The translations under genes were made by a program, and so were the position numbers. A DNA stretch of 58,694 bases, from NCBI GenBank assembly GCA_964530905.1, contig CAZHCI010000001.1, positions 14,995 through 73,688 of the forward strand, read 5' to 3'. This document shows, one piece after another, positions 35,323-45,151 of the stretch. The notes under the pieces are model-generated. The model ran no database searches. It had not been told where the DNA came from and worked only from the letters and a program-made list of their open reading frames with translations. The DNA comes from an uncultured bacterium (lineage in GTDB: Bacteria; Deinococcota; Deinococci; Deinococcales; Trueperaceae). The number at the start of each line of letters is the position of its first letter. Within the stretch, counting starts at the first letter, position 1.

Positions 35323-36339
35323 TCATGGCTCGGCGTCACGGCTCGGCGTTCGTTCTGCGCCCGCGACCGTGGGCGGCGTGAGGCCGGGCCGCTCGGCCGG
35401 GACGACCACGCCGAACTCGTTCCCCCCGTCCTCGCCGTCGGCGTCTCGCCAGCTCGCGCCCCACGCCGACCCGCCCCAGCGGTCGGCGATCGACCGGACG
35501 ACGTACAGACCGAGCCCGGTTCCTCCGCCCCAGCCCGACGTGCCCTTGCCGTGAGGCTCGAACAGTCGGTCGAGGCGCCGGTCGTCGATCGGCTCGCCAC
35601 GGTCGCGCACGCGGATCGCGACCGTCCCGCGACGCTCCTCCGCCTCGACCGTCACCACGGCGTCGTCCGGCCCGTGCACGGCCGCGTTCTCGATCAGGTT
35701 CACGACCACCTGCATCACCTTGTCCGGATCGGCCCAGACGCGCACCTGCCCGACGCGTCGCTCGACACGGACGCCGTGCTCCGCGAGCCGGTCGGCGAGC
35801 ACGAAGCAGGCGCGCTCGACGACGTCGGCGAGCGCCACGCTCCGCTCCCGAGGGGGGCGCACGTCGACGGTGAGGTCGGCGAGGAGCCGGACGAGGCGAT
35901 CGGCCTCCTCGCCCGCCCGCCGCAGCAGCCGCTCGCGGGTCGCGGGCGGAAGGTCGTCGTAGTGAAGCGCCTCGAGCGTCGATCGGATCGTGGTCGCCGG
36001 CGTCCGAAGCTCGTGCGAGAGCACCGCCAGCAGCTCCCTCGCGCCCTCCACCGCCGTGCGCTCGGCGGTCACGTCGCGTAGCGCAAGCCCCTCGGCGATC
36101 CGGACCGCCGCGATGCGGCGACCGCGCAGCGTGAGCTCCAGCGGCCGCCCGTCGAGCCAGACCTGCTCCAGGCGATGGTCGCGCACGACGGCGATGAGCG
36201 CCAGCCCGACGGACCGCTCCGGATCGGCGCCCAGCATCGCGGCGGCCGCGGCGTTCACCCGCACGACGCGGCCGCGCCGGACCAGCACGACGCCTTCGGC
36301 CAGCTCGTCCAGCCAGGGGTCAGGCGTCGCGCTCGGCAA
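35323..36339 (-). CDS. Soluble sensor histidine kinase (PAS-like + HisKA + HATPase_c), PhoR-like
   Basis: 338 aa with no transmembrane segment. H-box LSHELRTPATTI, N-box VVNLIENAAVHG, G-box GTGLGLYVV. Confidence 0.85.
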   Translation of the reverse strand: MPSATPDPWLDELAEGVVLVRRGRVVRVNAAAAAMLGADPERSVGLALIAVVRDHRLEQVWLDGRPLELTLRGRRIAAVRIAEGLALRDVTAERTAVEGARELLAVLSHELRTPATTIRSTLEALHYDDLPPATRERLLRRAGEEADRLVRLLADLTVDVRPPRERSVALADVVERACFVLADRLAEHGVRVERRVGQVRVWADPDKVMQVVVNLIENAAVHGPDDAVVTVEAEERRGTVAIRVRDRGEPIDDRRLDRLFEPHGKGTSGWGGGTGLGLYVVRSIADRWGGSAWGASWRDADGEDGGNEFGVVVPAERPGLTPPTVAGAERTPSRDAEP

Positions 36340-37039
36340 GCCGGTACCCCCTGCCGCGGACGGTCTCGATCAGGCCGTCGCCCAACCGCTGGCGGAGCTG
36401 CGCGACGTGCTGATCGACGGTGCGCTCGGTGCCCAGGTAGTCCTCGCCCCAGACGCGGTCGAGAAGCTCGGGACGCGTGAACACGCGCCCTGGGTGGGCG
36501 GCGAGGTAGGCGATCAGCTCGAACTCGCGGCGCGTGAGCTCCACCTCCCTGCCGTCGCGCGTGACGCGCCCGCCCTCGACGTCCACGACCAGGCCGCGAA
36601 CCGCGGAACGACGCCTGGACGGCACGCGGCGCAGCAGCGCCCGGATTCGCGCGACCAGCTCGGGGGCGCTGAACGGCTTGACGAGGTAGTCGTCGGCGCC
36701 CGCCTCGAGTCCCCCGACGCGGTCCACCTCGCTGGCGCGCGCCGTGAGCATCAGCACCGGCAGGCGAGCGTGATCGGCGTCCGCCCGGAGCCGGCGCAGC
36801 CACGCTTCGCCAGGCTCGTCGGGCAGCATCCGGTCGAGCACCACGACGTCCGCGAGCGCCAGGCGTCGCCAGCCCTCGCGCGCGTCGGCCGCCTCGTGCA
36901 CGACGAAGCCTGCCCGCGAAAGGTGCAGCGCCACGAGCTCGCGCACCGCGGGGTCGTCCTCGACGACCAGCACCGCCGGCGCCGCCTTCGTCGTCCGGTC
37001 GCCCGGCGGCTGGCCGAGTTGCACACGGTCGTTCGCCAC
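36320..37039 (-). CDS. OmpR/PhoB-family response regulator
   Basis: 239 aa. Receiver domain (VLVVEDDP...VVLDRMLPD...DDYLVKPF) plus a winged helix (LTRREFELIAYL...TVDQHVAQLRQRL...RGRGYRL). 20-nt overlap with the kinase gene. GTG lies 6 nt after TATCGT. Confidence 0.9.
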   Translation of the reverse strand: MANDRVQLGQPPGDRTTKAAPAVLVVEDDPAVRELVALHLSRAGFVVHEAADAREGWRRLALADVVVLDRMLPDEPGEAWLRRLRADADHARLPVLMLTARASEVDRVGGLEAGADDYLVKPFSAPELVARIRALLRRVPSRRRSAVRGLVVDVEGGRVTRDGREVELTRREFELIAYLAAHPGRVFTRPELLDRVWGEDYLGTERTVDQHVAQLRQRLGDGLIETVRGRGYRLAERDA

Positions 37040-37045
37040 CCGTCC

Positions 37046-37051
37046 ACGATA
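37046..37051 (-). promoter_or_regulatory. -10 box TATCGT, 6 nt before the response-regulator GTG
   Basis: Read directly. Confidence 0.4.
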
Positions 37052-37143
37052 CCGCCGTCACGTCACGGCACCGTCATCGCGCGCCGGCCGCCCGCAGGAC
37101 GGGGCTGACGCGTCCCTGACACCGAAAGGGCAACATCGCGGCA

Positions 37144-37152
37144 TGCTACGAT
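37144..37152 (+). promoter_or_regulatory. Extended -10 TGcTACGAT, 8 nt before phoU ATG 37161
   Basis: Read directly. Confidence 0.4.
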
Positions 37153-37160
37153 CGGATGCG

Positions 37161-37799
37161 ATGAACGCGCTGGACCACGACCTGCAGGAGGTCACCGCCG
37201 AGACCGTCCGGATGCTCAGCCTGGTGCGGGCGTCGGTCGATCTGGCCCGTCGCGCGCTGATCGACGCCGACGTCGATGCGGCCGAGCTCTGCGTCCAGAA
37301 CGACCGTGCGGTCGACGAGCTCCAGGACCAGCTCGAGCACCGGATCCTGAGCGTGATCGCCCGGCGCCAGCCCGCGGCCCGGGACCTGCGCTTCCTCGGT
37401 GCGATGCACCGCGCGCTGACCGACATCGAGCGCGCCGGCGACTACGCCGTGCACGTCGCGACCGCGGGACGCGAGCTGGCGGCGCGACCGCCGCTGAAGA
37501 AGTACATCGACATGAACCGGATCCTCGAGATCGAGGAAGCGATGATCGACACGACGATCGCCGCCCTGGCCGAGAGCGACGCCGACGCGGCGCGGCGCGC
37601 GTTGGGGATGGACGAGGAGATCGACGAGCTGTACGAGCAGATCCAGCGCGAGCTGCTGACGTACATGCTCGAGGACCACCGCTCGATCACGCCGGCGACG
37701 AAGCTGTTGAGCGTCGGCCGCTACCTCGAGCGGCTGGGCGATCACATCGAGAACATCTGCGAGCACATCCTGTTCTGGATCACGGCCGAGCGCGTCTGA
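37161..37799 (+). CDS. phoU: Phosphate signalling complex protein PhoU
   Basis: ORF 37143..37799. ATG 37161 is preferred because TGcTACGAT (37144-37152) overlaps the first ATG. Two PhoU repeats with the conserved E/DxxxD-type motifs (IERAGDYAVHV, LERLGDHIENI). Confidence 0.9.
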   Translation: MNALDHDLQEVTAETVRMLSLVRASVDLARRALIDADVDAAELCVQNDRAVDELQDQLEHRILSVIARRQPAARDLRFLGAMHRALTDIERAGDYAVHVATAGRELAARPPLKKYIDMNRILEIEEAMIDTTIAALAESDADAARRALGMDEEIDELYEQIQRELLTYMLEDHRSITPATKLLSVGRYLERLGDHIENICEHILFWITAERV

Positions 37800-37824
37800 C
37801 CCGAACGACCTTCGTCGCACGAAC

Positions 37825-37866
37825 CGGGGCGCACGATCCGGGGCGTACGATCCGGGGCGTACGGTC
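37825..37866 (+). repeat. Three tandem 14-bp repeats (CGGGGCGCACGATC, CGGGGCGTACGATC, CGGGGCGTACGGTC) between phoU and the amidase gene
   Basis: Read directly. Confidence 0.85.
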
Positions 37867-37922
37867 GCAGGCGTCGGGCGACGTTGTCGGACCTTTCGCA
37901 GCGACCGGTCGGCGACGCAGCG

Positions 37923-37928
37923 TACGCT
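37923..37928 (+). promoter_or_regulatory. -10 box TACGCT, 6 nt before amidase GTG 37935
   Basis: Read directly. Confidence 0.4.
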
Positions 37929-37934
37929 CGCGTC

Positions 37935-38840
37935 GTGACCGTCCCCGTTCTTTCCGGCGCCGGCTCGATCGCGCAGCCCCGTTCGCTTCGCTCGACAGCT
38001 GGCCGGCGACGGCGCCGGGCCGTGCTGCTGGTCCTGCTCGTGCTGGCCGTCGCGGGCTGGGCGTCGCTGGAGCGCGCGTCCGGGACGGAGGCGCGCGTCG
38101 CTGCGGTCGCCCGGACCGGGATCCCGGCGTCGCCCGGCGCTTGGGCCCCGGCGACGGCGTGGGTCATAGGACCCCCGACGGTCGGCGTCCAGATCGGGCA
38201 TCTGCACGCCCAGGAGCACCCCGACGAGCTCGCCGCGCTGAGGACCAGCACCGGCGGACGGGCGAACGGCGTGAACGAGGTCGACGTGAACCGCGCGGTC
38301 GCGATGGCGCTGGCAGGGCGCCTGGCGGCTGCCGGCGTGCGCGTCGAGCTCCTCGCCGCGACCGTTCCCGCCGGGTACGGTGCCGACGTGCTGATCGCGC
38401 TCCACGCCGACGCCAGCGACGATCCGTCCCGACGGGGCTACAAGAGCGCCCATCGCGAGCCCGCCCGCAACCGTCGCGAGCCGTGGCTGCGCACCCTCGT
38501 GGACGGCGCCTACCTACGGGCCGCCCCCATGCCGGACGACGCCGGCAACGTCTCGGGCGCGATGCTGGACTACTACGCGTTCGCGCACGATCGCCTGCGT
38601 CACGCCGCACGGGCGGGCACGGCGGGGCTGATCGTCGAGATGGGCTACCTGAGCCATCCGGTCGACCGGGCCTGGCTCGGCGACCCGGGCGGTCCCGCCG
38701 CGGCGATCGCCGAAGGCGTGCTGGGCTACCTCGCGGCGATCGATCGCTGGCACCCCGACCTCGCACCGAGCGACGGCGCGGCCGAACCGGCCGTGGTAGG
38801 GTCCTGGCCATGCGCGCAGTCCTCCTCGTCCTGTCCCTGA
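37935..38840 (+). CDS. N-acetylmuramoyl-L-alanine amidase (Amidase_3 family), N-terminal membrane anchor
   Basis: ORF 37884..38840 (TTG). GTG 37935 lies 6 nt after TACGCT. RRRRRAVLLVLLVLAVAGWA anchor. VGVQIGHLH..., VNEVDVNRAVAMALAGRL, LIALHADAS, GLIVEMGYLSHP. Confidence 0.8.
   Translation: MTVPVLSGAGSIAQPRSLRSTAGRRRRRAVLLVLLVLAVAGWASLERASGTEARVAAVARTGIPASPGAWAPATAWVIGPPTVGVQIGHLHAQEHPDELAALRTSTGGRANGVNEVDVNRAVAMALAGRLAAAGVRVELLAATVPAGYGADVLIALHADASDDPSRRGYKSAHREPARNRREPWLRTLVDGAYLRAAPMPDDAGNVSGAMLDYYAFAHDRLRHAARAGTAGLIVEMGYLSHPVDRAWLGDPGGPAAAIAEGVLGYLAAIDRWHPDLAPSDGAAEPAVVGSWPCAQSSSSCP
38794..38802 (+). promoter_or_regulatory. Possible internal extended -10 TGgTAGGGT, 7 nt before ATG 38810 (inside the amidase 3' end)
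   Basis: Read directly. If real, it would give the YtkA-FixG-like genes their own leaderless transcript. Confidence 0.3.
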
Positions 38841-39208
38841 CGGCACTCGTCGCGTCCTGCAGGCCGCCGGACGCCGGGTCTTCGGCGCGCGGCGCGGCGA
38901 CCTCGGACGCGGTCGCCATCACGATCGAGCTGCCGGACGAACCCGCCGTCGGCGCCGCCACGGTCACCGTCCGGGTCGACCGGGACGGCGTCGCCGCCGA
39001 AGGCGCCGAGGTCGAGATCACCGGCGACATGACGCACGCCGGCATGGTGCCGGTGATTCGCGCCGCCGACGAAGCGGCTCCGGGCGTGTACCGGGCCGAC
39101 GACGTGGTGTTCGACATGGCAGGAGATTGGATCGTCACGGCCGACGTCACGTTGCCGGACGGGTCCACCGCCCGCCAGGAAGCCGCGACCACCGTCCGCC
39201 GACCGTGA
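38810..39208 (+). CDS. YtkA/FixH-like domain lipoprotein
   Basis: ATG 38810 in ORF 38141..39208. Lipobox LVASC. ATVTVRVDRDGVAAEGAEVEITGDMTHAGMVPV...APGVYRADDVVFDMAGDWIVTADVTLPDG fits the YtkA-like Ig fold with a Met/His motif. Confidence 0.7.
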   Translation: MRAVLLVLSLTALVASCRPPDAGSSARGAATSDAVAITIELPDEPAVGAATVTVRVDRDGVAAEGAEVEITGDMTHAGMVPVIRAADEAAPGVYRADDVVFDMAGDWIVTADVTLPDGSTARQEAATTVRRP

Positions 39209-40731
39209 GTCGTCGCGTTCCGCTCCCCACCACCGGCCCGATCGCCGACCAGCCCCGCGGGCCGGATCTGTTCCGGCTTCCGGGCCTCCGTCGCTTCGTA
39301 CGCTGGCGCTACGCCCGCCTGGCGCTGCAGCTTCCGCTGCTGGCGCTGGCAGCGTTCGTGATCATTGACGGGCTCACGGGACGCCAGCTCGCACCGCGGA
39401 ACGTCGCGACGACCGCGAGCTGGCTGCACTATCGCGGGCTGGTCGTCGTCGCGCTCGCCCTCGTCGGAAACGCGTTCTGCGCCGCCTGTCCGTTGATGCT
39501 GACCCGTGGCCCGGCGAACGCCGTGAAGCGCTGGCTGCCGACCGAGCTCCGTTGGCCCTCCTGGCTGCGCAACAAGTGGCTGGTCGTCGCGTTGCTCCTC
39601 GCGGTGTTCTACAGCTACGAGGCGTTCGACCTTTGGGCCAGTCCGTGGCTCACCGCCTGGCTTGCGATCGCCTACTTCGTGGGCGCGTTCGCCGTCGACG
39701 CGCTCTTCCCCGCCGGCACGTTCTGTCGCTACGTGTGCCCGCTGGGGAACTTCAACTTCGTGTTCTCGAGCGTGTCGCCCACGCAGATCGCGGCGGCCGA
39801 TCCGGACGTGTGCCGCGCCTGCGAGCACAAGCCGTGCCTGCACGGTCGCGAGACGCGGAGCGATCGTGACGACGCTACGGGGGCGTACGCGTTCGTGGCG
39901 CCGGACGAGGTGGTGCGCCCGAACGGCGAGGGCGTGTTCCCCGGCTGCGAGACGCGCCTGTTCGTCCCCGCGATGACCTCGAACATGGACTGCACCTCGT
40001 GCATGAACTGCGTCCGGGCCTGCCCGTACGACAACGTCTCGCTGGTGCTGCGGTCCCCCGCGCGCGAGCTGTCGCGCGATCCGTGGCGACGCCGGTGGGG
40101 CCTTCCGGTGCTGGTCCTGGCGGTGCTGCTGCTGTTCTGGGGCCTGCTCAACGCGGTGGCGATGGTTCCGCCGTTCTACGACGCCGCCCAGTGGCTCGCG
40201 ACCGTGACCGGCAGCCGAAACGAGGCGTTCTTGTTGGCGCTGGTGTTCGGCGCGTTCGGCCTGGCCGGACTGGCGCTGGCCGGGGCGGGCGCGGTCGCGG
40301 CCGACCTCGCGGGCGGGGCCGGCTTCGCGCCCCGCAGAGCGCTGCTGCGCTGGGGCTACGTGTTCGTGGCGCTTGGGTTCGGCTTCTGGGCGGCGCACTA
40401 CCTGTTCCACTTCCTCACCGGAGCGGCGTCGATCGTGCCGGTGATGCAGCATTTCTTCGAGTATCGGGGGGCCGCGGTCGATCCCGACTGGCGGCTCGCG
40501 CGCTGGATGCCGTCGGCTTGGCTGTTCCCCGTCACGGCCGCGGTGAGCGCCGGCTACGCGCTCCTGGCCGCGTTCATCGTGGTCCGGATCGCGCTGCGCG
40601 ACTTCGGTCGGCGAGGCGTGCTCGCGATGTGGCCGATGCTGATCCTGGTCATCGGCCTGGCGGTGGTCCAGCTTCTGATCCTGGCCCAGCCGATGGAGAT
40701 GCGCGGCACCGTGCTGGGGCCGTCGTTCTGA
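39205..40731 (+). CDS. FixG/CcoG/NapH-like polytopic 4Fe-4S-binding membrane protein
   Basis: GTG 39205 overlaps the upstream stop (GTGA). CAACP and CRYVCPLGNF membrane Cys motifs. CRACEHKPC and a canonical CTSCMNCVRACP ferredoxin motif. Extra C-terminal transmembrane block containing AAHYLFHFLTG and MQHFF. Confidence 0.75.
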   Translation: MSRRVPLPTTGPIADQPRGPDLFRLPGLRRFVRWRYARLALQLPLLALAAFVIIDGLTGRQLAPRNVATTASWLHYRGLVVVALALVGNAFCAACPLMLTRGPANAVKRWLPTELRWPSWLRNKWLVVALLLAVFYSYEAFDLWASPWLTAWLAIAYFVGAFAVDALFPAGTFCRYVCPLGNFNFVFSSVSPTQIAAADPDVCRACEHKPCLHGRETRSDRDDATGAYAFVAPDEVVRPNGEGVFPGCETRLFVPAMTSNMDCTSCMNCVRACPYDNVSLVLRSPARELSRDPWRRRWGLPVLVLAVLLLFWGLLNAVAMVPPFYDAAQWLATVTGSRNEAFLLALVFGAFGLAGLALAGAGAVAADLAGGAGFAPRRALLRWGYVFVALGFGFWAAHYLFHFLTGAASIVPVMQHFFEYRGAAVDPDWRLARWMPSAWLFPVTAAVSAGYALLAAFIVVRIALRDFGRRGVLAMWPMLILVIGLAVVQLLILAQPMEMRGTVLGPSF

Positions 40732-41489
40732 TGCCGTCGCGTCGGCGCCGGACGACAGCGCTGTGGGCAGCGGCTCGTGGGGCGGCGGCTCTCGGGGCGG
40801 CGGCGCTGGCGAGCGCCGCCTGGTCGCTGGGCCCGCTCGCGGCGGCGCAGGAGGCGCCGCACGCGGTCGGACCGCCCCCGTGCGCCTACCAGGACGCCCC
40901 CGCCCGGATCCATCCGGAGGGCGACGGACGCTGGACGGTGCTGGACACCGTGTTCGCGCTGCCCGAGACCTGGGCGCCGGACGACCTGGTGCCGGCCCGC
41001 GAGGCCGGGTTCGACGACGACCGCTCGGTTCGCGCCGTGATCGTGCCCGACCTTCGCGCGCTCCGCGAGGCGGCTGAGGCGGACGGGGTTTCGCTCGCGC
41101 TGTGGTCGGCCTTCCGCAGCCACGCCTACCAGGCGACGACGTTCGCGTACTGGGTCGATCGGAACGGCGAGGCCGCAGCGCTCGCGACCAGCGCCAGACC
41201 GGGGCACTCCGAGCATCAGCTGGGCACCGCCGTGGACCTCGGCAGCCTGGAAGGGCCGGCCCCGTGGGACGTCGAGGATTGGGCCGTCACGGCGGAGGGA
41301 GCGTGGATGCAGCGCAACGGCTGGCGGTTCGGCTTCGTGGCCAGCTACCCGCGCGGTGCCGAGGAGCTGAGCTGCTACGCCTACGAGCCGTGGCACTGGA
41401 GGTGGATCGGCCGCGAGCTCGCGGCCGTCGTGCACGCGCGCGGCGCCCTGCCTCGCGACGTGTTGTGGGAGGTGTCGCATGCGCCCTGA
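40731..41489 (+). CDS. M15B (VanY-like) D-alanyl-D-alanine carboxypeptidase, secreted
   Basis: ATG 40731 shares one base with the upstream stop. Signal peptide, then SAFRSHAYQ, ARPGHSEHQLGTAVDL and YEPWHWRW zinc-ligand motifs. Confidence 0.85.
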   Translation: MPSRRRRTTALWAAARGAAALGAAALASAAWSLGPLAAAQEAPHAVGPPPCAYQDAPARIHPEGDGRWTVLDTVFALPETWAPDDLVPAREAGFDDDRSVRAVIVPDLRALREAAEADGVSLALWSAFRSHAYQATTFAYWVDRNGEAAALATSARPGHSEHQLGTAVDLGSLEGPAPWDVEDWAVTAEGAWMQRNGWRFGFVASYPRGAEELSCYAYEPWHWRWIGRELAAVVHARGALPRDVLWEVSHAP

Positions 41490-42087
41490 TTCCGCCGAGC
41501 CTCGCCGCTCGGCTCCGTCCGTCCGCCGCCTGTGGCGCGTCGCCTCGACGCTGGTGGCGTGGAGCGGCGTGGCCGTCGCGCTGGCCCACGCCACGATCGT
41601 GTTCGGCACGGTCTCGAGCGAGCCGACCCCCGTACGCGCGGGCCAGCCCGCCGCCCTCCTGCTCGAGATGCGCGATCCCGTCGACGCGCCGGTGGAGGAC
41701 GCCATCGTGTTCGTCGAGGCTCGCCCGCGAAGCGGCGAGCCGGTGCTCGAGAGCGACCGATTCGCGGAGATCCGCCCGGGCGTGTACCGCACCGAGCTGG
41801 TCCTGCCCGAACGGGGCGAGTGGACGTTCCTGTTCCGCGACCAGACGTTCCGCCAGGAGGAGGCCCAGGCGACGATCACCCTGAACGTGGGCCCCGACGG
41901 CGACACGGAGACGCGCTCGTTCATCTTTCCCCCGACCGCGACGGGCCCCACCGGCCTGACCACCTGGCTGGTCTGGCTGATCGGGCTGCCGCTGGTCGCA
42001 GGCCTGGTCGTGACGGTGATGGTTCTCCGTGGCGGTCCCAGCGCGCCGGACGGCGGCAAAAGCGGCGCGGGAGGACCACCGGCGTGA
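41479..42087 (+). CDS. Secreted YtkA/FixH/CopC-like beta-sandwich protein with a C-terminal membrane anchor
   Basis: 202 aa with a GGGAGG RBS. Signal peptide ends ...GVAVALA/HATIV. Core RPGVYRTELVLPERGEWTFLFRD parallels the 38810 protein. C-terminal TM LTTWLVWLIGLPLVAGLVVTVMVL. Confidence 0.6.
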   Translation: MRPDSAEPRRSAPSVRRLWRVASTLVAWSGVAVALAHATIVFGTVSSEPTPVRAGQPAALLLEMRDPVDAPVEDAIVFVEARPRSGEPVLESDRFAEIRPGVYRTELVLPERGEWTFLFRDQTFRQEEAQATITLNVGPDGDTETRSFIFPPTATGPTGLTTWLVWLIGLPLVAGLVVTVMVLRGGPSAPDGGKSGAGGPPA

Positions 42088-42815
42088 GCCTTCTGACGCA
42101 GACCTCGGGCACGATCGTGAACGTCGTCGCGGTGCTGCTGGGCTCGTCGCTGGGGCTGCTGCTGCGGGGGCGGCTGCCTGCGCGGACGGTGACCGTCGTG
42201 ATGCAGGCCATCGGGTTGACCACGGTGTTCATCGGCATCGGCTCGGCGCTGGACCTGACCCGGGTCGACGCGCCCCCTGGCGTGATCGTGGCGTTGCTCG
42301 GCCTGGCCGCGGGCGGGGCGCTGGGCGAGGCGCTGCGCATCGAGGAGGGCCTCGAGCGGATCGGCGAGCGTCTGAAGCGACGGTTCCGCGGCACCGGCCG
42401 CTTCACCGAAGGGTTCGTCGCGGCCACCCTGCTCTTCTGCGTGGGACCCCTCACGCTCCTCGGCTCGATACAGAACGGGCTCGTCGGCGATCCCGGCTTC
42501 CTGCTGCTCAAGAGCGCCCTCGACGGGCTTTCGTCGCTCGCGCTCGCCACGACGTTCGGCGTGGGCGTGATGGCGTCGGCGATCGTGATCGCCGTGTACC
42601 AGGGCGGGCTGTCGCTGGGCGCCGGTCTGTTGACCCAGTGGCTGCCCGATCCCGCCAACGACCCCAGGGTCCTGCTCGTCAACGGGGTGGGCGGCCTGAT
42701 GATCATCGGTCTCGGCCTGGGCCTGCTCGAGATCGTGCGCGTGCGCGTGGCCAGCATGTTGCCGGCGCTCCTGCTGGTCGTGCCGCTCTGGGCACTGCTG
42801 GGCTTGGCGTTCTAG
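42084..42815 (+). CDS. DUF554-family membrane protein
   Basis: GTG 42084 overlaps the upstream stop (GTGA), with a GGGAGGA RBS. GTIVNVVAVLLGSSLGLLLRGRLP...GFVAATLLFCVGPLTLLGSIQNGL is typical of DUF554 (YdfK/YqgA-like). Confidence 0.75.
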   Translation: MSLLTQTSGTIVNVVAVLLGSSLGLLLRGRLPARTVTVVMQAIGLTTVFIGIGSALDLTRVDAPPGVIVALLGLAAGGALGEALRIEEGLERIGERLKRRFRGTGRFTEGFVAATLLFCVGPLTLLGSIQNGLVGDPGFLLLKSALDGLSSLALATTFGVGVMASAIVIAVYQGGLSLGAGLLTQWLPDPANDPRVLLVNGVGGLMIIGLGLGLLEIVRVRVASMLPALLLVVPLWALLGLAF

Positions 42816-42839
42816 CCGGCGTGGCGTCCTAGCCGGCGT
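42806..42839. repeat. Tandem 17-bp repeat GGCGT(T/C)CTAGCCGGCGT x2 between convergent DUF554 and TetR genes
   Basis: Read directly. The CTAG core of each copy provides one gene's stop codon. Confidence 0.8.
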
Positions 42840-43449
42840 CGCGCTCGTCGCTCGGGTCGTCCGCGCCGCCGCGGGTCCGTAGGCCGGTCCACCACACGTC
42901 GATCATCTCGCGGGCCATGTCACGGGCAGGCCGCGTCGCGCCCTCGACCGTGACGGCGTGGTCGATCGCCTCGATGGTCGCCAGGAACGTTCCCGCCAGC
43001 AGCATCGGATCGGCCGCGCGCGTCTCGCCGCGCTCCGCGGCCGACGCGAACGCGGCCCGCAGCGGCTCGAGCAGCGCGCGGTACGCCAACGCGCGGAGCC
43101 GGTCCGTGTGCTCGGGCGACGCGACCGCCATGTCGCTGCGGACCATCCGGAACAGGTCGACGAGGGGCTGACCGAGAAGCCAGTCGGCCACGGCGTGAAG
43201 CGCGTCGGGGAGCGACGCCGCATCGGAGACGGCGGCCTCCATCGCGCGTCGATGACGCTCCATGCTCCGTTCGACCACCTGGACGTAGAGGTCCTGCTTC
43301 CCGGCGGGAGCGTGGTAGTACAGCGACGCCTGGCGGATGCCGAGCTGCCGCGCGATGTCGCGCATCGTCACGCCGGCGAAGCCGTGCCGGGCGAACAGCT
43401 CCTCGGCGGCGTGCAACACCCGTTCGCGTGCGGGGCTCGCCTGGTCCAC
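42829..43449 (-). CDS. TetR-family transcriptional regulator
   Basis: 206 aa. HTH RERVLHAAEELFARHGFAGVTMRDIARQLGIRQASLYYHAP. GTG lies 6 nt after TATCAT. Confidence 0.88.
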   Translation of the reverse strand: MDQASPARERVLHAAEELFARHGFAGVTMRDIARQLGIRQASLYYHAPAGKQDLYVQVVERSMERHRRAMEAAVSDAASLPDALHAVADWLLGQPLVDLFRMVRSDMAVASPEHTDRLRALAYRALLEPLRAAFASAAERGETRAADPMLLAGTFLATIEAIDHAVTVEGATRPARDMAREMIDVWWTGLRTRGGADDPSDERDAG

Positions 43450-43455
43450 CGCCGC

Positions 43456-43461
43456 ATGATA
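43456..43461 (-). promoter_or_regulatory. -10 box TATCAT, 6 nt before the TetR GTG
   Basis: Read directly. Confidence 0.4.
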
Positions 43462-43519
43462 GCCGCCCGCACGCCCGGCGACCGCCGTCCCCGACCCGAT
43501 TCGGGCTGCCGCCGAGGCG

Positions 43520-43528
43520 TGCTAGCCT
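43520..43528 (+). promoter_or_regulatory. Extended -10 TGcTAGCCT, 6 nt before the gatC ATG
   Basis: Read directly. Confidence 0.45.
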
Positions 43529-43534
43529 TCCGGC

Positions 43535-43831
43535 ATGAACGTCGACGACCACGAGCTGGCGCACCTCGCCCGACTGGCCCGGCTGCGACTCGACGAGGCG
43601 GAGCGGGAGCGCCTCCGCGGCGATCTGGAGCGCGTGCTGGCCCACCTCGGCGAGCTCACGAGCATCGACGTCGACGGCCTCGAGCCGATGCTGCGTCCCG
43701 TCCACGTCGAGGACGGGACGCGCAGCGACGTCGTGCGCCCCGGGCTGGCCGCGGATCGCGCCAGGTCCCAGGCCCGTGCGCAGCTCGACGAGTTCGTCCG
43801 CGTCCCCCGCACCGGCGGTGACGACGGCTGA
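43535..43831 (+). CDS. gatC: Asp-tRNA(Asn)/Glu-tRNA(Gln) amidotransferase subunit C
   Basis: 98 aa. ELAHLARLARLRLDEAERERLRGDLERVLAHLGELTSIDVDGLEP. Confidence 0.88.
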   Translation: MNVDDHELAHLARLARLRLDEAERERLRGDLERVLAHLGELTSIDVDGLEPMLRPVHVEDGTRSDVVRPGLAADRARSQARAQLDEFVRVPRTGGDDG

Positions 43832-43873
43832 GCCCGGCGTGCCCCGCGGCGACCCCGACGGCGCCGCCCGGCC

Positions 43874-45151
43874 TCAGGCCAGCGGCTCCGACCCCAGGTA
43901 CGGCTCCAGCGCCTCGGGCACCATCACGCCGCCCGTCTCGAGCTGGTACGTCTCGACGACGGCGGCGACGGTCCGCGGCAACGCCAGCGCGCTTCCGTTC
44001 AGGGTGTGGACCAGCGTGGTCTTGCCGCTTCCGGACGGCCCGCCGGGACGCGCCCGCGTCTTCAGGCGTCGCGCCTGGAAATCGGTCATCGTGCTGATGC
44101 TGCTCACCTCGAGCCAGCGCTCCTGTCCGGGGCTCCACACCTCGAGGTCGTACTTCTTCGCCTGCGTGAAGCCCATGTCGGCCGTGCACATCAGCAGCCG
44201 GCGGTACGTGAGGCCCAGCGCGTCCAGCATCGCCTCCGCCAGCTCCGTCATCTCCTCGAGCATCGCGTAGCCCGCGTCCGGCTCCGTGAACGCCACCATC
44301 TCGACCTTGTCGAACTGGTGGACCCGGTTCAGGCCGCGGACCTCCTTGCCGTAGCTTCCCGCCTCGCGACGGAAGCAAGGGGTGGACGCGCAGTAGCGGA
44401 CGGGCAGCGAGCCGGTGTCGAGGATCTCGTCGCGGTGCAGGTTCGTGACCGCGACCTCGGACGTCGGGATCAGGTACAGGCCGTCCTCGACCCGGTACAT
44501 CTGCCCCTCCTTGTCGGGCAGCTGCCCGGTCGCCGTCGCGCTCGCCTCGTTCGCGAGCAGCGGCACGCGAACCTCGGCGAAGCCCGCCTGCGCGAGCCGA
44601 TCCAGGAAGAACCGCTCGAGCGCGCCGAACAGGCGCACCCCGTTCCGCCGCACGACGGGGAACCCGGCGCCGGCGATCTTCGTGCCGGCCTCGAGGTCCA
44701 GCCAGCCGAGCGACGCCATCGTGTCCCAGTGCGGTCGGACGCCTCCGACCGGGGCGGTTCCCGGGCGCTCGTGCACCACGACGTTGTCGTGCTCGCTCTC
44801 GCCCAGCGGAACGCTCTCGTGCGGAAGGTTCGGGATCTCGAGGTGGAGCCGCTCGATCCGTTCGCGCAGCGCGCGCTCGCGCTCCTCGAGGCGCTTCACC
44901 TCGCTCGACAGCCCGCCCATGGCCCGGATCAGCTCGGACGCGTCCTCGCCGGTCCGCTTGAGCTCGCCGATGCGCTTGCTGTCGGCGTTGCGGCGAGCCT
45001 GCTTCGCCTCGAGCTCCTGTCGCAGCAGGCGGTGCTCCTCGTCGGCCAGGAGCAGGTCGTCCAGCGCCGCCTCGGCGCCGTCGATTCGCTTGGCACGAAC
45101 GCCCCGTCGGACGTCCTCGGGATGGTCTCGCAGAAGCGTGGGATCGAGCAT
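43874..45151 (-). CDS. serS: Serine--tRNA ligase
   Basis: 425 aa with an N-terminal coiled-coil arm and class II motifs (FRREAGSYGKEVRGLNRVHQFDKVE, GSALALPR). Confidence 0.94.
   Translation of the reverse strand: MLDPTLLRDHPEDVRRGVRAKRIDGAEAALDDLLLADEEHRLLRQELEAKQARRNADSKRIGELKRTGEDASELIRAMGGLSSEVKRLEERERALRERIERLHLEIPNLPHESVPLGESEHDNVVVHERPGTAPVGGVRPHWDTMASLGWLDLEAGTKIAGAGFPVVRRNGVRLFGALERFFLDRLAQAGFAEVRVPLLANEASATATGQLPDKEGQMYRVEDGLYLIPTSEVAVTNLHRDEILDTGSLPVRYCASTPCFRREAGSYGKEVRGLNRVHQFDKVEMVAFTEPDAGYAMLEEMTELAEAMLDALGLTYRRLLMCTADMGFTQAKKYDLEVWSPGQERWLEVSSISTMTDFQARRLKTRARPGGPSGSGKTTLVHTLNGSALALPRTVAAVVETYQLETGGVMVPEALEPYLGSEPLA

What the first reader, a model, noticed from the sequence alone, without database searches (positions are those of the whole stretch)
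37825..42815. Overlapping six-gene envelope string: two peptidoglycan hydrolases joined to a FixG/CcoG-like Fe-S membrane protein, two YtkA/FixH-like periplasmic domains and DUF554
Seen in the sequence:
- Six same-strand genes have overlapping or abutting boundaries.
- Amidase_3 (37935-38840) overlaps the YtkA-like lipoprotein start (38810) by 31 nt.
- YtkA-like to FixG-like is a GTGA overlap (39205).
- FixG-like to the M15 VanY-like carboxypeptidase is a TGATG overlap (40731).
- M15 overlaps the second YtkA/CopC-like protein by 11 nt (41479).
- That protein to DUF554 is a GTGA overlap (42084).

Established knowledge:
- FixG/CcoG is a polytopic 4Fe-4S protein that works with FixH in the fixGHIS/ccoGHIS copper-delivery module for cbb3 oxidase.
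- YtkA-like domains are FixH-related Ig folds.
- Amidase_3 and M15B enzymes are zinc-dependent cell-wall hydrolases.

Here there is no FixI/CcoI P-type ATPase, no FixS and no oxidase gene. The redox/metal module is instead interleaved with cell-wall enzymes, a combination I do not recognise as a described system.

Inference: this could be a transmembrane electron-transfer or copper-handling module coupled to peptidoglycan trimming, possibly under the adjacent PhoU / response regulator / kinase trio.

Caveat: a TGgTAGGGT box 7 nt before ATG 38810 could give genes 2-6 their own transcript, leaving the amidase separate.
Basis: partly seen in the sequence, partly recalled or inferred. Interest (0 to 1): 0.7.

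Follow-up and report, generated by a model that had tools for sequence, protein, structure and literature searches.

The report
Copper-delivery operon with cell-wall passengers
The six overlapping genes are real, but three of them form a widespread, uncharacterised copper-handling module linked to cytochrome c oxidase assembly, and the cell-wall enzyme genes sit next to it only in this one bacterial family.

Summary
Six + strand genes of a Trueperaceae (Deinococcota) genome lie at the stated coordinates, with the stated overlaps and domain assignments.

- **Conserved core.** g2 (YtkA/CtaK-type lipoprotein), g3 (9-TM polyferredoxin) and g5 (Ig domain with a C-terminal anchor) stay together across Deinococcota, Chloroflexota, Gemmatimonadota, Acidobacteriota and Bacteroidota.
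  - Sco, CopC/CopD or MbnP/MbnH genes are often nearby.
  - 40 of 40 N-terminally extended g3 homologues are fused to Caa3_CtaG.
  - 3 of 3 fusions looked up end a caa3 oxidase/bc-complex operon.
  - g3 is a remote relative of YccM, a CcoG homologue (hhalign 96.9%), but fails the CcoG/FixG family tests.
  - I read the core as a candidate cupric reductase plus copper chaperones for A-type oxidase maturation.
- **Cell-wall genes.** The LdcB-like M15B peptidase, the amidase, DUF554 and PhoU adjoin g3 only in Trueperaceae: 0 of 56 loci elsewhere. They are no better conserved there than the neighbouring gatC and serS.
- **Transcription.** A conserved leaderless-type −10 box (16 of 16 Deinococcota loci) gives g2–g6 their own transcript, which leaves the amidase separate.

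The PG–copper coupling is therefore probably lineage-specific co-transcription, not a conserved machine.

The parts
37923..37928 (+). TACGCT, a leaderless-type -10 box 6 nt before the GTG start of g1
   Evidence: TAGGCT and TAGCCT occupy the same place in L004 and L005.
37935..38840 (+). g1: membrane-anchored Amidase_3 (N-acetylmuramoyl-L-alanine amidase). It is a separate transcription unit and is found at this locus only in Trueperaceae.
   Evidence: Pfam 34.9 bits against a cut-off of 27. The H/E/H/E catalytic positions are invariant in 13 orthologues. It is present in 13 loci, all Trueperaceae-type.
38794..38802 (+). TGGTAGGGT, an extended -10 box 7 nt before the g2 ATG. It is the promoter of a leaderless g2-g6 transcript and lies inside the 3' end of g1.
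   Evidence: TAnnnT lies 6-9 nt before the YtkA start in 16 of 16 Deinococcota loci, 12 of them with TG. The chance rate is 0.28% per site.
38810..39208 (+). g2: YtkA/CtaK-type lipoprotein, a putative periplasmic Cu(I) chaperone
   Evidence: Pfam YtkA 55.8 bits. The lipobox Cys and the motifs GxMxHxGMxPV and MxGDW are conserved in 53 loci across phyla. It lies immediately upstream of g3 homologues in 54 of 83 loci.
39205..40731 (+). g3: 9-TM polyferredoxin, a candidate cupric reductase. It has two CxxCP-type motifs, a cytoplasmic 8-Cys dicluster domain and a C-terminal 5-TM bundle with periplasmic His/Met motifs.
40731..41489 (+). g4: LdcB/YodJ-like M15B (VanY) peptidoglycan carboxypeptidase, inserted between g3 and g5 in Trueperaceae only
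   Evidence: Pfam 119.8 bits. PDB 4ox3 E=1.6e-28. It is present in 15 loci, all Trueperaceae-type.
41479..42087 (+). g5: FixH/YtkA-like Ig-fold protein with a signal peptide, His as the predicted first mature residue and a C-terminal TM anchor. It is a putative Cu(II)-capturing partner of g3.
   Evidence: Pfam YtkA 27.9 bits. H37 is invariant in 57 homologues. The same architecture recurs across phyla. The AF2 model is a beta-sandwich plus a TM helix, and its best fold match is the copper protein CrdA.
42084..42815 (+). g6: DUF554 membrane protein of unknown role. It is the last gene of the transcript and is found at this locus only in Trueperaceae.
   Evidence: Pfam 232 bits. It is present in 11 loci, all Trueperaceae-type.
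35323..37799 (.). Syntenic flank: PAS histidine kinase (-), OmpR-type response regulator (-) and PhoU (+). They are probably the Pho regulators and not part of the module.
   Evidence: PhoU is next to g3 only in Trueperaceae-type loci.

Best explanation
**What it is.** The string combines a conserved three-gene copper-trafficking module (g2, g3, g5) with genes that only Trueperaceae keep beside it (g1, g4, g6).

**Module parts.**
- g3 is a membrane polyferredoxin of the NapH/YccM/CcoG superfamily. Two [4Fe-4S]-type Cys motifs and two CxxCP-type motifs face the cytoplasm. A family-specific 5-TM bundle places invariant His and Met residues (H398, H402, P-M-E-M-R at 496-500) on the periplasmic face.
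- g5 is an Ig-fold protein held by a C-terminal helix. Its predicted first mature residue is His, as in the Cu(II) binders CopC and YcnI.
- g2 is a CtaK-type lipoprotein with a Met/His site suited to Cu(I).

**Inferred mechanism.** g5 captures Cu(II). g3 uses cytoplasmic reducing power to make Cu(I). g2 passes Cu(I) on, with Sco/CtaG-type factors encoded elsewhere, to the CuA/CuB sites of an A-type (caa3) cytochrome c oxidase or to other envelope cuproenzymes.

**Shown versus inferred.**
- Shown: the gene order, the motifs, the conservation, the fusions and the operon contexts.
- Inferred: the reductase activity, the direction of copper flow and the target enzyme.

**Cell-wall genes.** The LdcB-like peptidase and DUF554 are co-transcribed passengers on the leaderless g2-g6 mRNA. 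The amidase is a neighbouring gene with its own promoter.
For: **Core conserved across phyla.** In 83 g3 loci, a YtkA gene lies just upstream in 54. An Ig+TM gene lies beside g3 in about 45. SCO1/SenC (Pfam 146.5 bits) lies upstream in 10. CopC/CopD/MbnP/MbnH occur in several Trueperaceae.

**Fusions.** 40 of 40 N-terminally extended g3 homologues among the top 150 representatives carry Caa3_CtaG.

**Oxidase context.** 3 of 3 fusions looked up are the last gene of a COX2-COX1-COX3-x-cyt c-Rieske-cyt b operon. Two are followed by a signal+Ig+TM protein.

**Homology.** hhalign of the g3 profile against E. coli YccM gives probability 96.9% and E 1.4e-10 over the CxxCP and dicluster region. YccM is described as a CcoG homologue in PMC7558416.

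**Conserved residues.**
- All 12 Cys are invariant in 75 Trueperaceae orthologues. Eleven are invariant and C266 is at least 90% conserved across phyla, and H398, H402 and M497 are also invariant there.
- The positive-inside rule puts the Fe-S domain in the cytoplasm and the His/Met motifs outside.
- The g2 motif GxMxHxGM is conserved in 53 loci.

**Literature.** CtaK/YtkA acts with Sco in CuA assembly (PMC9145763, PMC13344008).

**g5.** H37 is invariant. The best fold match is the copper protein CrdA, with TM-score 0.70 normalised by the target.

**Passenger status of the cell-wall genes.** VanY, Amidase_3, DUF554 and PhoU appear in 0 of 56 non-Trueperaceae loci even at E<=10. Two Trueperaceae loci (L006, L017) have g3 followed directly by g5.

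**Promoters.** The -10 box before g2 is present in 16 of 16 Deinococcota loci. There is none before g3-g6.
Against: - No biochemical datum exists for this family.
- g3 fails the CcoG/FixG models: TIGR02745, Fer4_18 and FixG_C are all absent.
- Its first Cys motif is non-canonical (CxxCxxxxC...C).
- No membrane-embedded cofactor that could carry electrons to a periplasmic Cu(II) is evident, so the side on which reduction happens is open.
- The AF2 model has no PDB relative (best E 0.08).
- The window and the +/-10 kb of a close relative hold no oxidase, Sco or CtaG gene, so in this genome the target is only inferred.
- g4 is translationally coupled to g3 and g5, and its orthologue stays in the rearranged copper cluster of T. 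radiovictrix. This could reflect selection rather than inheritance.
- Signal-peptide cleavage before H37 of g5 is predicted from the AxA rule only.
Confidence: 0.68

Rival explanations
1. There is real functional coupling in Trueperaceae. The copper module and the peptidoglycan enzymes, at least the LdcB-like peptidase, work together. For example, stem peptides might be trimmed when copper flux through the envelope changes, because copper poisons LD-transpeptidases. The operon would then be a copper-responsive cell-wall remodelling unit.
For: - g4 overlaps both g3 (TGATG) and g5 (11 nt) and has no promoter box of its own, so it is co-expressed with them.
- VanY lies within 6 kb of g3 in 15 Trueperaceae-type loci whose g3 identity falls to about 57-60%.
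- In T. radiovictrix the VanY orthologue (58% identity) still closes the copper cluster, although g5 is replaced there by CopC/CopD/MbnP/MbnH genes.
- Copper inhibits LD-transpeptidases in many bacteria (PMC11390936). LdcB-type enzymes remove the tetrapeptide substrate of those enzymes (my own knowledge).
Against: - VanY and the amidase are absent from 56 of 56 g3 loci outside Trueperaceae.
- They are missing from several Trueperaceae loci: L006 and L017 lack VanY, and L013, L014, L016 and L019 lack all of these genes.
- Conservation inside the family equals that of the unrelated neighbours gatC and serS, as plain synteny predicts.
- The amidase has its own promoter and is separated from g2 by a LigT gene in L003.
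Confidence: 0.14
2. g3 is not a cupric reductase. It is a different redox or transport component of the same pathway. One option is an electron conduit that keeps the Cys residues of Sco or apo-CuA reduced, a TlpA/CcdA-like task. Another is a Cu(I) channel formed by the C-terminal 5-TM His/Met bundle, with the Fe-S domain acting as a sensor.
For: - Conserved CxxCP Cys pairs sit at the membrane face, and Sco genes lie upstream in 10 loci.
- Invariant periplasmic His/Met motifs resemble transporter entry or exit sites.
- The fusion partner Caa3_CtaG is a polytopic protein related to CopD-type copper permeases (PMC9145763).
- NapH-type relatives are quinol dehydrogenases, not metal reductases (NCBIfam TIGR02163 hit).
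Against: - CcoG, which PMC7558416 groups with the detected relative YccM, is a Cu(II)-specific reductase.
- The partners g2 and g5 are copper-binding-type domains rather than thioredoxin folds.
- Thiol-reducing systems normally pair with thioredoxin-like proteins, and none was found by the searches made here.
Confidence: 0.15
3. All six genes are unrelated neighbours packed tightly in a compact, high-GC genome, and the overlaps carry no functional meaning.
For: - Overlapping stops and starts are common in such genomes.
- The wider block (patatin, GT2, HK, RR, PhoU ... gatC, serS) is syntenic across Trueperaceae.
Against: g2, g3 and g5 stay together in five phyla whose flanks are otherwise unrelated, and they occur as fusions or neighbours of oxidase assembly genes. 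This cannot be inherited synteny.
Confidence: 0.03

Closest known systems
CcoG/FixG cupric reductase of the ccoGHIS (fixGHIS) cbb3-oxidase assembly cluster, and its shorter homologue E. coli YccM
   Same: - It is a polytopic membrane protein with two CxxCP-type Cys motifs followed by a cytoplasmic two-cluster ferredoxin domain.
- It is detectably homologous to YccM (hhalign 96.9%).
- It is accompanied by an Ig-fold FixH/YtkA-type partner.
- Its relatives sit in operons for heme-copper oxidase biogenesis.
   Different: - It does not match TIGR02745, Fer4_18 or FixG_C.
- The C-terminal periplasmic Ig domain of CcoG is replaced by a 5-TM bundle with His/Met motifs. The Ig domains are separate genes (g2, g5).
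- Its first cluster motif is non-canonical.
- It has no CcoI/FixI ATPase, CcoH or CcoS partner.
- Its relatives associate with caa3 (A-type) oxidase, Caa3_CtaG, Sco and CopC/D rather than cbb3.
Bacillus subtilis CtaK (YtkA) / Sco / Caa3_CtaG / YcnJ-YcnI copper pathway for caa3 and aa3 oxidases
   Same: - g2 is a YtkA-family lipoprotein with conserved His/Met residues, like CtaK.
- g5 has the YcnI-like layout of signal peptide, His, beta-sandwich and C-terminal TM helix.
- Sco, CopC and CopD genes neighbour the module in other lineages.
   Different: - B. subtilis has no CcoG-like reductase, and whether Cu(II) reduction is enzymatic there is stated to be unknown (PMC13344008). Here a dedicated polyferredoxin is the central, most conserved gene.
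- g5 matches YtkA rather than DUF1775 or CopC.
NapH/MauN/NosR family of membrane ferredoxin-type quinol dehydrogenases
   Same: The N-terminal 4-TM region with CxxCP motifs gives the best NCBIfam hit (TIGR02163, 43.9 bits, residues 81-207).
   Different: - The score is far below the family cut-off of 213.
- No Nap, Mau or Nos genes are nearby.
- g3 has an extra 5-TM C-terminal domain.
LdcB (YodJ/DacB) LD-carboxypeptidases, MEROPS M15B
   Same: - g4 aligns with B. subtilis YodJ (PDB 4ox3) at E 1.6e-28.
- g4 keeps the SxHxxGxAxD and ExxH zinc motifs.
   Different: g4 is embedded in a copper operon. That context is seen only in Trueperaceae and was not found described in the literature searched.

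Membership tests
CcoG/FixG (NCBIfam TIGR02745; Pfam Fer4_18 + FixG_C) | Match to the family models | tested here: not met
   There is no hit to TIGR02745, PF13746 or PF11614 at E<=0.1. tblastn against plasmids does not reach rhizobial fixG.
CcoG/FixG | N-terminal membrane domain with two Cys motifs of the CxxCP type (Fer4_5) shared with YccM and NapH | tested here: met
   C92xxC95P and C174xxxC178P are invariant. hhalign against YccM gives 96.9%. Fer4_5 hits occur in fused homologues.
CcoG/FixG | Two tetranuclear Fe-S cluster motifs | tested here: inconclusive
   Eight conserved Cys are present: C203xxC206xxxxC211, C248 and C263xxC266xxC269xxxC273P. Only the second motif is canonical. Cluster content needs spectroscopy.
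CcoG/FixG | C-terminal TM helix plus periplasmic Ig-like domain | tested here: not met
   Residues 300-508 form five TM helices. The Ig domains are encoded separately by g2 and g5.
CcoG/FixG | Genomic association with ccoNOQP and ccoHIS (FixI P-type ATPase, FixS) | tested here: not met
   The window has no DKTGT motif and no COX genes. Relatives sit with caa3 genes.
CcoG/FixG | Cu(II)-specific reductase activity | not testable with these tools
   This needs purified protein or membranes.
YtkA/CtaK (Pfam PF13115) | Match above the gathering score | tested here: met
   g2 scores 55.8 and g5 scores 27.9 against a cut-off of 25.9.
YtkA/CtaK | Lipoprotein signal with lipobox Cys | tested here: met
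   g2 has LVASC, conserved in 53 loci. g5 does not meet this feature: it has an AxA|H site and a C-terminal anchor.
YtkA/CtaK | Conserved His and Met residues proposed to bind copper | tested here: met
   g2 has GxMxHxGMxPV and MxGDW at 80% or more conservation across phyla. The feature is described in PMC9145763.
YtkA/CtaK | Role in CuA assembly of cytochrome c oxidase | not testable with these tools
   Only context supports it: Sco neighbours, and caa3 operons of fused relatives.
LdcB / VanY (M15B) | Family model match plus zinc-ligand motifs | tested here: met
   PF02557 scores 119.8 bits. NF041194 LdcB scores 73.4 bits, below its cut-off of 275. PDB 4ox3 gives E 1.6e-28, and HSEHQLGTAVD and EPWH are present.
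Amidase_3 | Family model match plus Zn ligands and catalytic Glu | tested here: met
   PF01520 scores 34.9 bits against a cut-off of 27. The H, E, H and E positions are invariant in 13 orthologues; assigning them as ligands rests on my reading of the family motif. No PDB sequence hit was found.
DUF554 | Family model match | tested here: met
   PF04474 scores 232 bits over the full length.

The most novel reading that the evidence does not exclude
In Trueperaceae the copper module has truly been wired to cell-wall trimming. The LdcB-like carboxypeptidase, and perhaps DUF554 and the amidase, would be expressed with the copper reductase and chaperones because copper flux through the envelope inhibits LD-transpeptidation. 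The cell would compensate by editing stem peptides. That would make this a copper-responsive peptidoglycan remodelling operon with no described precedent.
Probability: 0.12. Interest if true: 0.75.

Novelty: new variant of a known kind. Interest (0 to 1): 0.5.

Why it matters
Recent work on B. subtilis states an open question: how is Cu(II) reduced for loading into A-type heme-copper oxidases in bacteria that lack CcoG (PMC13344008)?

The g3 family offers a concrete, testable candidate.
- It is widespread. 213 clusters (at 50% identity) score E<1e-30, and it was found here in Deinococcota, Chloroflexota, Gemmatimonadota, Acidobacteriota, Bacteroidota and, as CtaG fusions, Planctomycetota.
- It is annotated as 'hypothetical protein' or 'polyferredoxin' and is not covered by any Pfam or NCBIfam family.
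- It is repeatedly tied to CtaK, Sco, CopC/D, Caa3_CtaG and caa3 operons.

If confirmed, it would extend the CcoG paradigm from cbb3 to caa3/aa3 oxidases. It would also define a three-part relay of Cu(II) catcher, reductase and Cu(I) chaperone.

The peptidoglycan link that prompted the finding is of lesser weight. It looks like family-level synteny with co-transcription.

Tried and rejected
- **Exact look-up of the window's own proteins.** Neither g3 nor g5 is on record in the contig index. Close relatives were used instead.
- **Sigma-70 promoter and intrinsic terminator scan of 36900-43900.** Nothing was found. That consensus does not suit a 72% GC Deinococcota genome. A direct comparison of start-codon upstream regions worked instead.
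- **Sequence search of the PDB with the g3 profile.** Only generic ferredoxin motif hits came back.
- **Foldseek of the g3 model against the PDB.** No meaningful match (best E 0.08, TM about 0.1).
- **tblastn of g3 against plasmids, hoping to reach rhizobial fixG.** Only four weak '4Fe-4S binding protein'-type hits appeared.
- **phmmer of the amidase against the PDB.** No hit.
- **Literature searches.** Searches for Caa3_CtaG-ferredoxin fusions and for DUF554 returned nothing relevant. The original CcoG paper (PMC6800367) is not held.
- **Is g5 the orthologue of the CopC gene next to VanY in T. radiovictrix?** Rejected: BLASTP E 0.097.
- **Control by the PhoU/RR/HK trio.** Set aside. The kinase lacks a periplasmic sensor, and the trio is syntenic only within Trueperaceae.
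- **All-against-all BLASTP clustering.** It was too insensitive for the small Ig proteins, so it was replaced by iterated local HMMs.

Full report
**1.

The window is 72% G+C. Relatives of its proteins are named as Trueperaceae, Deinococcota.

- g1, 37935-38840
- g2, 38810-39208
- g3, 39205-40731
- g4, 40731-41489
- g5, 41479-42087
- g6, 42084-42815

The junctions are exactly as described:
- g1/g2 overlap by 31 nt.
- g2/g3 share GTGA.
- g3/g4 share TGATG.
- g4/g5 overlap by 11 nt.
- g5/g6 share GTGA.

Independent gene calls on a 91%-identical relative give the same six genes (L004).

Pfam assigns the following bit scores:

| Gene | Family | Bits |
|---|---|---|
| g1 | Amidase_3 | 34.9 (cut-off 27) |
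| g2 | YtkA | 55.8 |
| g4 | VanY | 119.8 |
| g5 | YtkA | 27.9 |
| g6 | DUF554 | 232 |

g3 gets only sub-threshold 4Fe-4S motif hits in Pfam. In NCBIfam it gets a weak NapH/MauN hit of 43.9 bits against a cut-off of 213.

- PhoU, an OmpR-type regulator and a PAS histidine kinase lie upstream.
- A TetR gene converges downstream, followed by gatC and serS.
- The whole window has no P-type ATPase motif and no COX1/2/3, Sco, CopC/D or MbnP/H.

**2. Neighbourhoods split the string in two**

*Within Trueperaceae.*
- In Truepera radiovictrix the g3 orthologue (65% identity) sits in this order: HK-RR-PhoU-YtkA-104aa-g3-DUF2946-211aa-CopC-CopD-MbnP-MbnH-CopC-VanY. There is no amidase and no DUF554.
- In another Trueperaceae genome the order is PhoU-Amidase_3-LigT-YtkA-CopD-g3-VanY-g5-gatC-serS.

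*Across phyla.* A scan of one genome per species found at least 547 relatives. The 80 kept loci span Trueperaceae, Thermaceae, other Deinococcales, Chloroflexota, Gemmatimonadota, Acidobacteriota and Balneolaceae/Rhodothermales.

I translated all ORFs within 6 kb of g3 and searched them with locally iterated HMMs. Of 83 loci:
- A YtkA-type lipoprotein gene lies just upstream of g3 in 54, including 38 of the 56 non-Trueperaceae loci.
- A g5-like gene (signal peptide, Ig domain, C-terminal TM helix) lies beside g3 in about 45, including 29 of the 56.
- SCO1/SenC lies upstream in 10 (Pfam 146.5 bits).

The other four families behave differently.

| Family | Loci with it near g3 | Of the 56 non-Trueperaceae loci |
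|---|---|---|
| VanY | 15 | 0 |
| Amidase_3 | 13 | 0 |
| DUF554 | 11 | 0 |
| PhoU | 17 | 0 |

The zeros hold even at E<=10. Further points:
- Within Trueperaceae, L006 and L017 have g3 followed directly by g5.
- L013, L014, L016 and L019 lack all four families.
- The obviously unrelated gatC (12 loci) and serS (11 loci) are conserved next to the block to the same degree.

So g2-g3-g5 is a conserved module. The adjacency of the cell-wall genes is at the level of family synteny.

**3. Transcription units**

A TAnnnT hexamer lies 6-9 nt before the YtkA start codon in 16 of 16 Deinococcota loci. Twelve of these have the TG extension. The chance rate is 0.28% per site in this window.

This is the leaderless-mRNA promoter layout known from Deinococcus-Thermus (my own knowledge). 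In the window it is TGGTAGGGT at 38794-38802, inside the 3' end of g1.

- g1 has its own box: TACGCT, 6 nt before the GTG at 37935. L004 and L005 have TAGGCT and TAGCCT there.
- g3, g4, g5 and g6 have no such box. g5 and g6 have GGAGG-type ribosome sites.
- The g1 C-terminal extension that creates the 31-nt overlap exists only in the window and L004.

The likely units are therefore [g1] and [g2-g6]. Read-through from g1 is not excluded, because no terminator was found.

**4. What g3 is**

*Conserved residues.*
- All twelve Cys are invariant in 75 Trueperaceae orthologues.
- Across phyla eleven are invariant and C266 is at least 90% conserved.
- The motifs are C92xxC95P, C174xxxC178P, C203xxC206xxxxC211, C248 and C263xxC266xxC269xxxC273P.
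- H398, H402, and Q495-P496-M497 and R500 of the C-terminal QPMEMR motif are also invariant across phyla.

*Topology.* Hydropathy and the positive-inside rule give nine TM helices. The Cys-rich domain is cytoplasmic. The His/Met motifs are on the outer face. K+R counts are 9/6/15/2/3 in inside loops against 3/0/1/3/1 in outside loops.

*Structure.* The AlphaFold model is confident (pLDDT 80, pTM 0.82). It has no structural relative in the PDB.

*Homology.* A profile of the family aligns with E. coli YccM at 96.9% probability (E 1.4e-10) over the CxxCP and dicluster region. A review describes YccM as a short homologue of the cupric reductase CcoG (PMC7558416).

*Family membership.* g3 does not match the CcoG/FixG models. 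It has a 5-TM bundle where CcoG has its Ig domain. It is a distinct family of the same superfamily, not a FixG.

**5. Link to cytochrome c oxidase**

An exhaustive search of 1.84 billion cluster representatives found 1590 relatives, 213 of them with E<1e-30.
- Forty of the top 150 have an N-terminal extension of about 200-460 residues (mostly about 290). All 40 carry PF09678 Caa3_CtaG, the Bacillus-type oxidase assembly factor.
- One is from a Phycisphaerales genome. JGI names another 'cytochrome c oxidase assembly factor CtaG/ferredoxin'.
- All three fusions I looked up are the last gene of a COX2(cyt c)-COX1-COX3-x-cyt c-Rieske-cyt b operon. Two are followed by a 171-173 aa protein. The one I translated (L085) has a signal peptide, a beta-rich domain and a C-terminal TM helix.

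**6. The partners**

*g2.*
- It has a lipobox and the motifs GxMxHxGMxPV and MxGDW, conserved in 53 loci across phyla.
- B. subtilis YtkA is CtaK, a lipoprotein with conserved His/Met residues that acts with Sco in CuA assembly (PMC9145763, PMC13344008).

*g5.*
- It has a signal-like helix, then an invariant His (H37) after an AxA site, an Ig sandwich and a C-terminal TM helix.
- The His is kept in Deinococcota, Acidobacteriota, Bacteroidota and many Chloroflexota. It is not kept in Gemmatimonadota.
- The best fold match is the H. pylori copper protein CrdA. PmoD is also listed. The Ig fold is generic, however, and E is only 2.6e-4.
- NCBI names a 78%-identical relative 'FixH family protein'.

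**7. The cell-wall genes are intact enzymes**

- g4 aligns with B. subtilis YodJ/LdcB (PDB 4ox3, E 1.6e-28) and keeps the zinc motifs.
- In g1, the residues at the Amidase_3 zinc and catalytic positions are invariant in 13 orthologues.

The VanY orthologue of T. radiovictrix (58% identity) still closes the copper cluster there, although g5 is absent. This is the best argument for a real link. It is equally explained by insertion of extra copper genes between g3 and VanY.

A biological rationale for coupling does exist, because copper inhibits LD-transpeptidases (PMC11390936). I leave about 0.12-0.14 probability for functional coupling.

**8. Mechanism proposed (inferred)**

1. g5 captures Cu(II) at the outer face.
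2. g3 draws electrons from a cytoplasmic donor through its Fe-S clusters and produces Cu(I).
3. g2 receives Cu(I) at its Met/His site.
4. g2 passes it to Sco/CtaG-type factors and on to the oxidase.

Three things are not known:
- whether reduction happens outside or after import;
- what the electron donor is;
- what the conserved His/Met bundle does.

**9. Novelty and score**

- The family is unnamed in Pfam and NCBIfam.
- I found no paper on it. The search was limited, and the original CcoG paper, which surveyed CcoG relatives, was not available.
- I rate it a new variant of a known kind: a CcoG-superfamily reductase system attached to A-type oxidase assembly.
- The headline claim of a redox module coupled to peptidoglycan trimming is probably not a system-level feature.
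- Interest is 0.5.

Noticed in passing
window 37816-37863: There is a 14-nt tandem repeat (CGCACGATCCGGGG, 3.4 copies) in the spacer between phoU and the amidase gene. It is not conserved in the close relatives L004 and L005.
   Followed up: partly
window 37884-37905 (and L004, L005): A conserved block, GTTGTCGGACnTTTCGCAGC, lies about 30-50 nt upstream of the amidase start in three relatives. It may be an operator or a promoter element.
   Followed up: no
window 42801-42843: There is a 17-nt tandem repeat (GGCGTGGCGTCCTAGCC, 2.5 copies) spanning the convergent 3' ends of DUF554 and the TetR gene.
   Followed up: no
window 43520-43534: The same leaderless-type box (TGCTAGCCT, 6-nt spacer) precedes the gatC start codon at 43535.
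   Followed up: partly
L065:2579-3163 and seven other loci (L066, L068, L071-L074, L078): A His-rich membrane protein of about 195 aa with no Pfam match lies just upstream of YtkA-g3 in Acidobacteriota and Bacteroidota. It may be a further component of the module.
   Followed up: partly
L001:7571-7885: A 104-aa protein with no Pfam match sits between YtkA and g3 in T. radiovictrix, and homologues lie upstream of g3 in six other Trueperaceae loci.
   Followed up: partly
L001:9606-15619: T. radiovictrix carries a larger copper island after g3: DUF2946, a His-rich 211-aa Ig-like protein, CopC, CopD, MbnP, MbnH (a di-heme peroxidase), a second CopC, then VanY.
   Followed up: partly
L085:1100-10807, L086, L087: Planctomycetota-type operons join the caa3 oxidase genes, a cytochrome c, Rieske and cytochrome b genes, and a CtaG-polyferredoxin fusion in one string.
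   Followed up: partly
window 40731-40860: The g4 signal peptide starts MPSRRRRTTAL. This may be a twin-arginine (Tat) export signal for the zinc peptidase.
   Followed up: no
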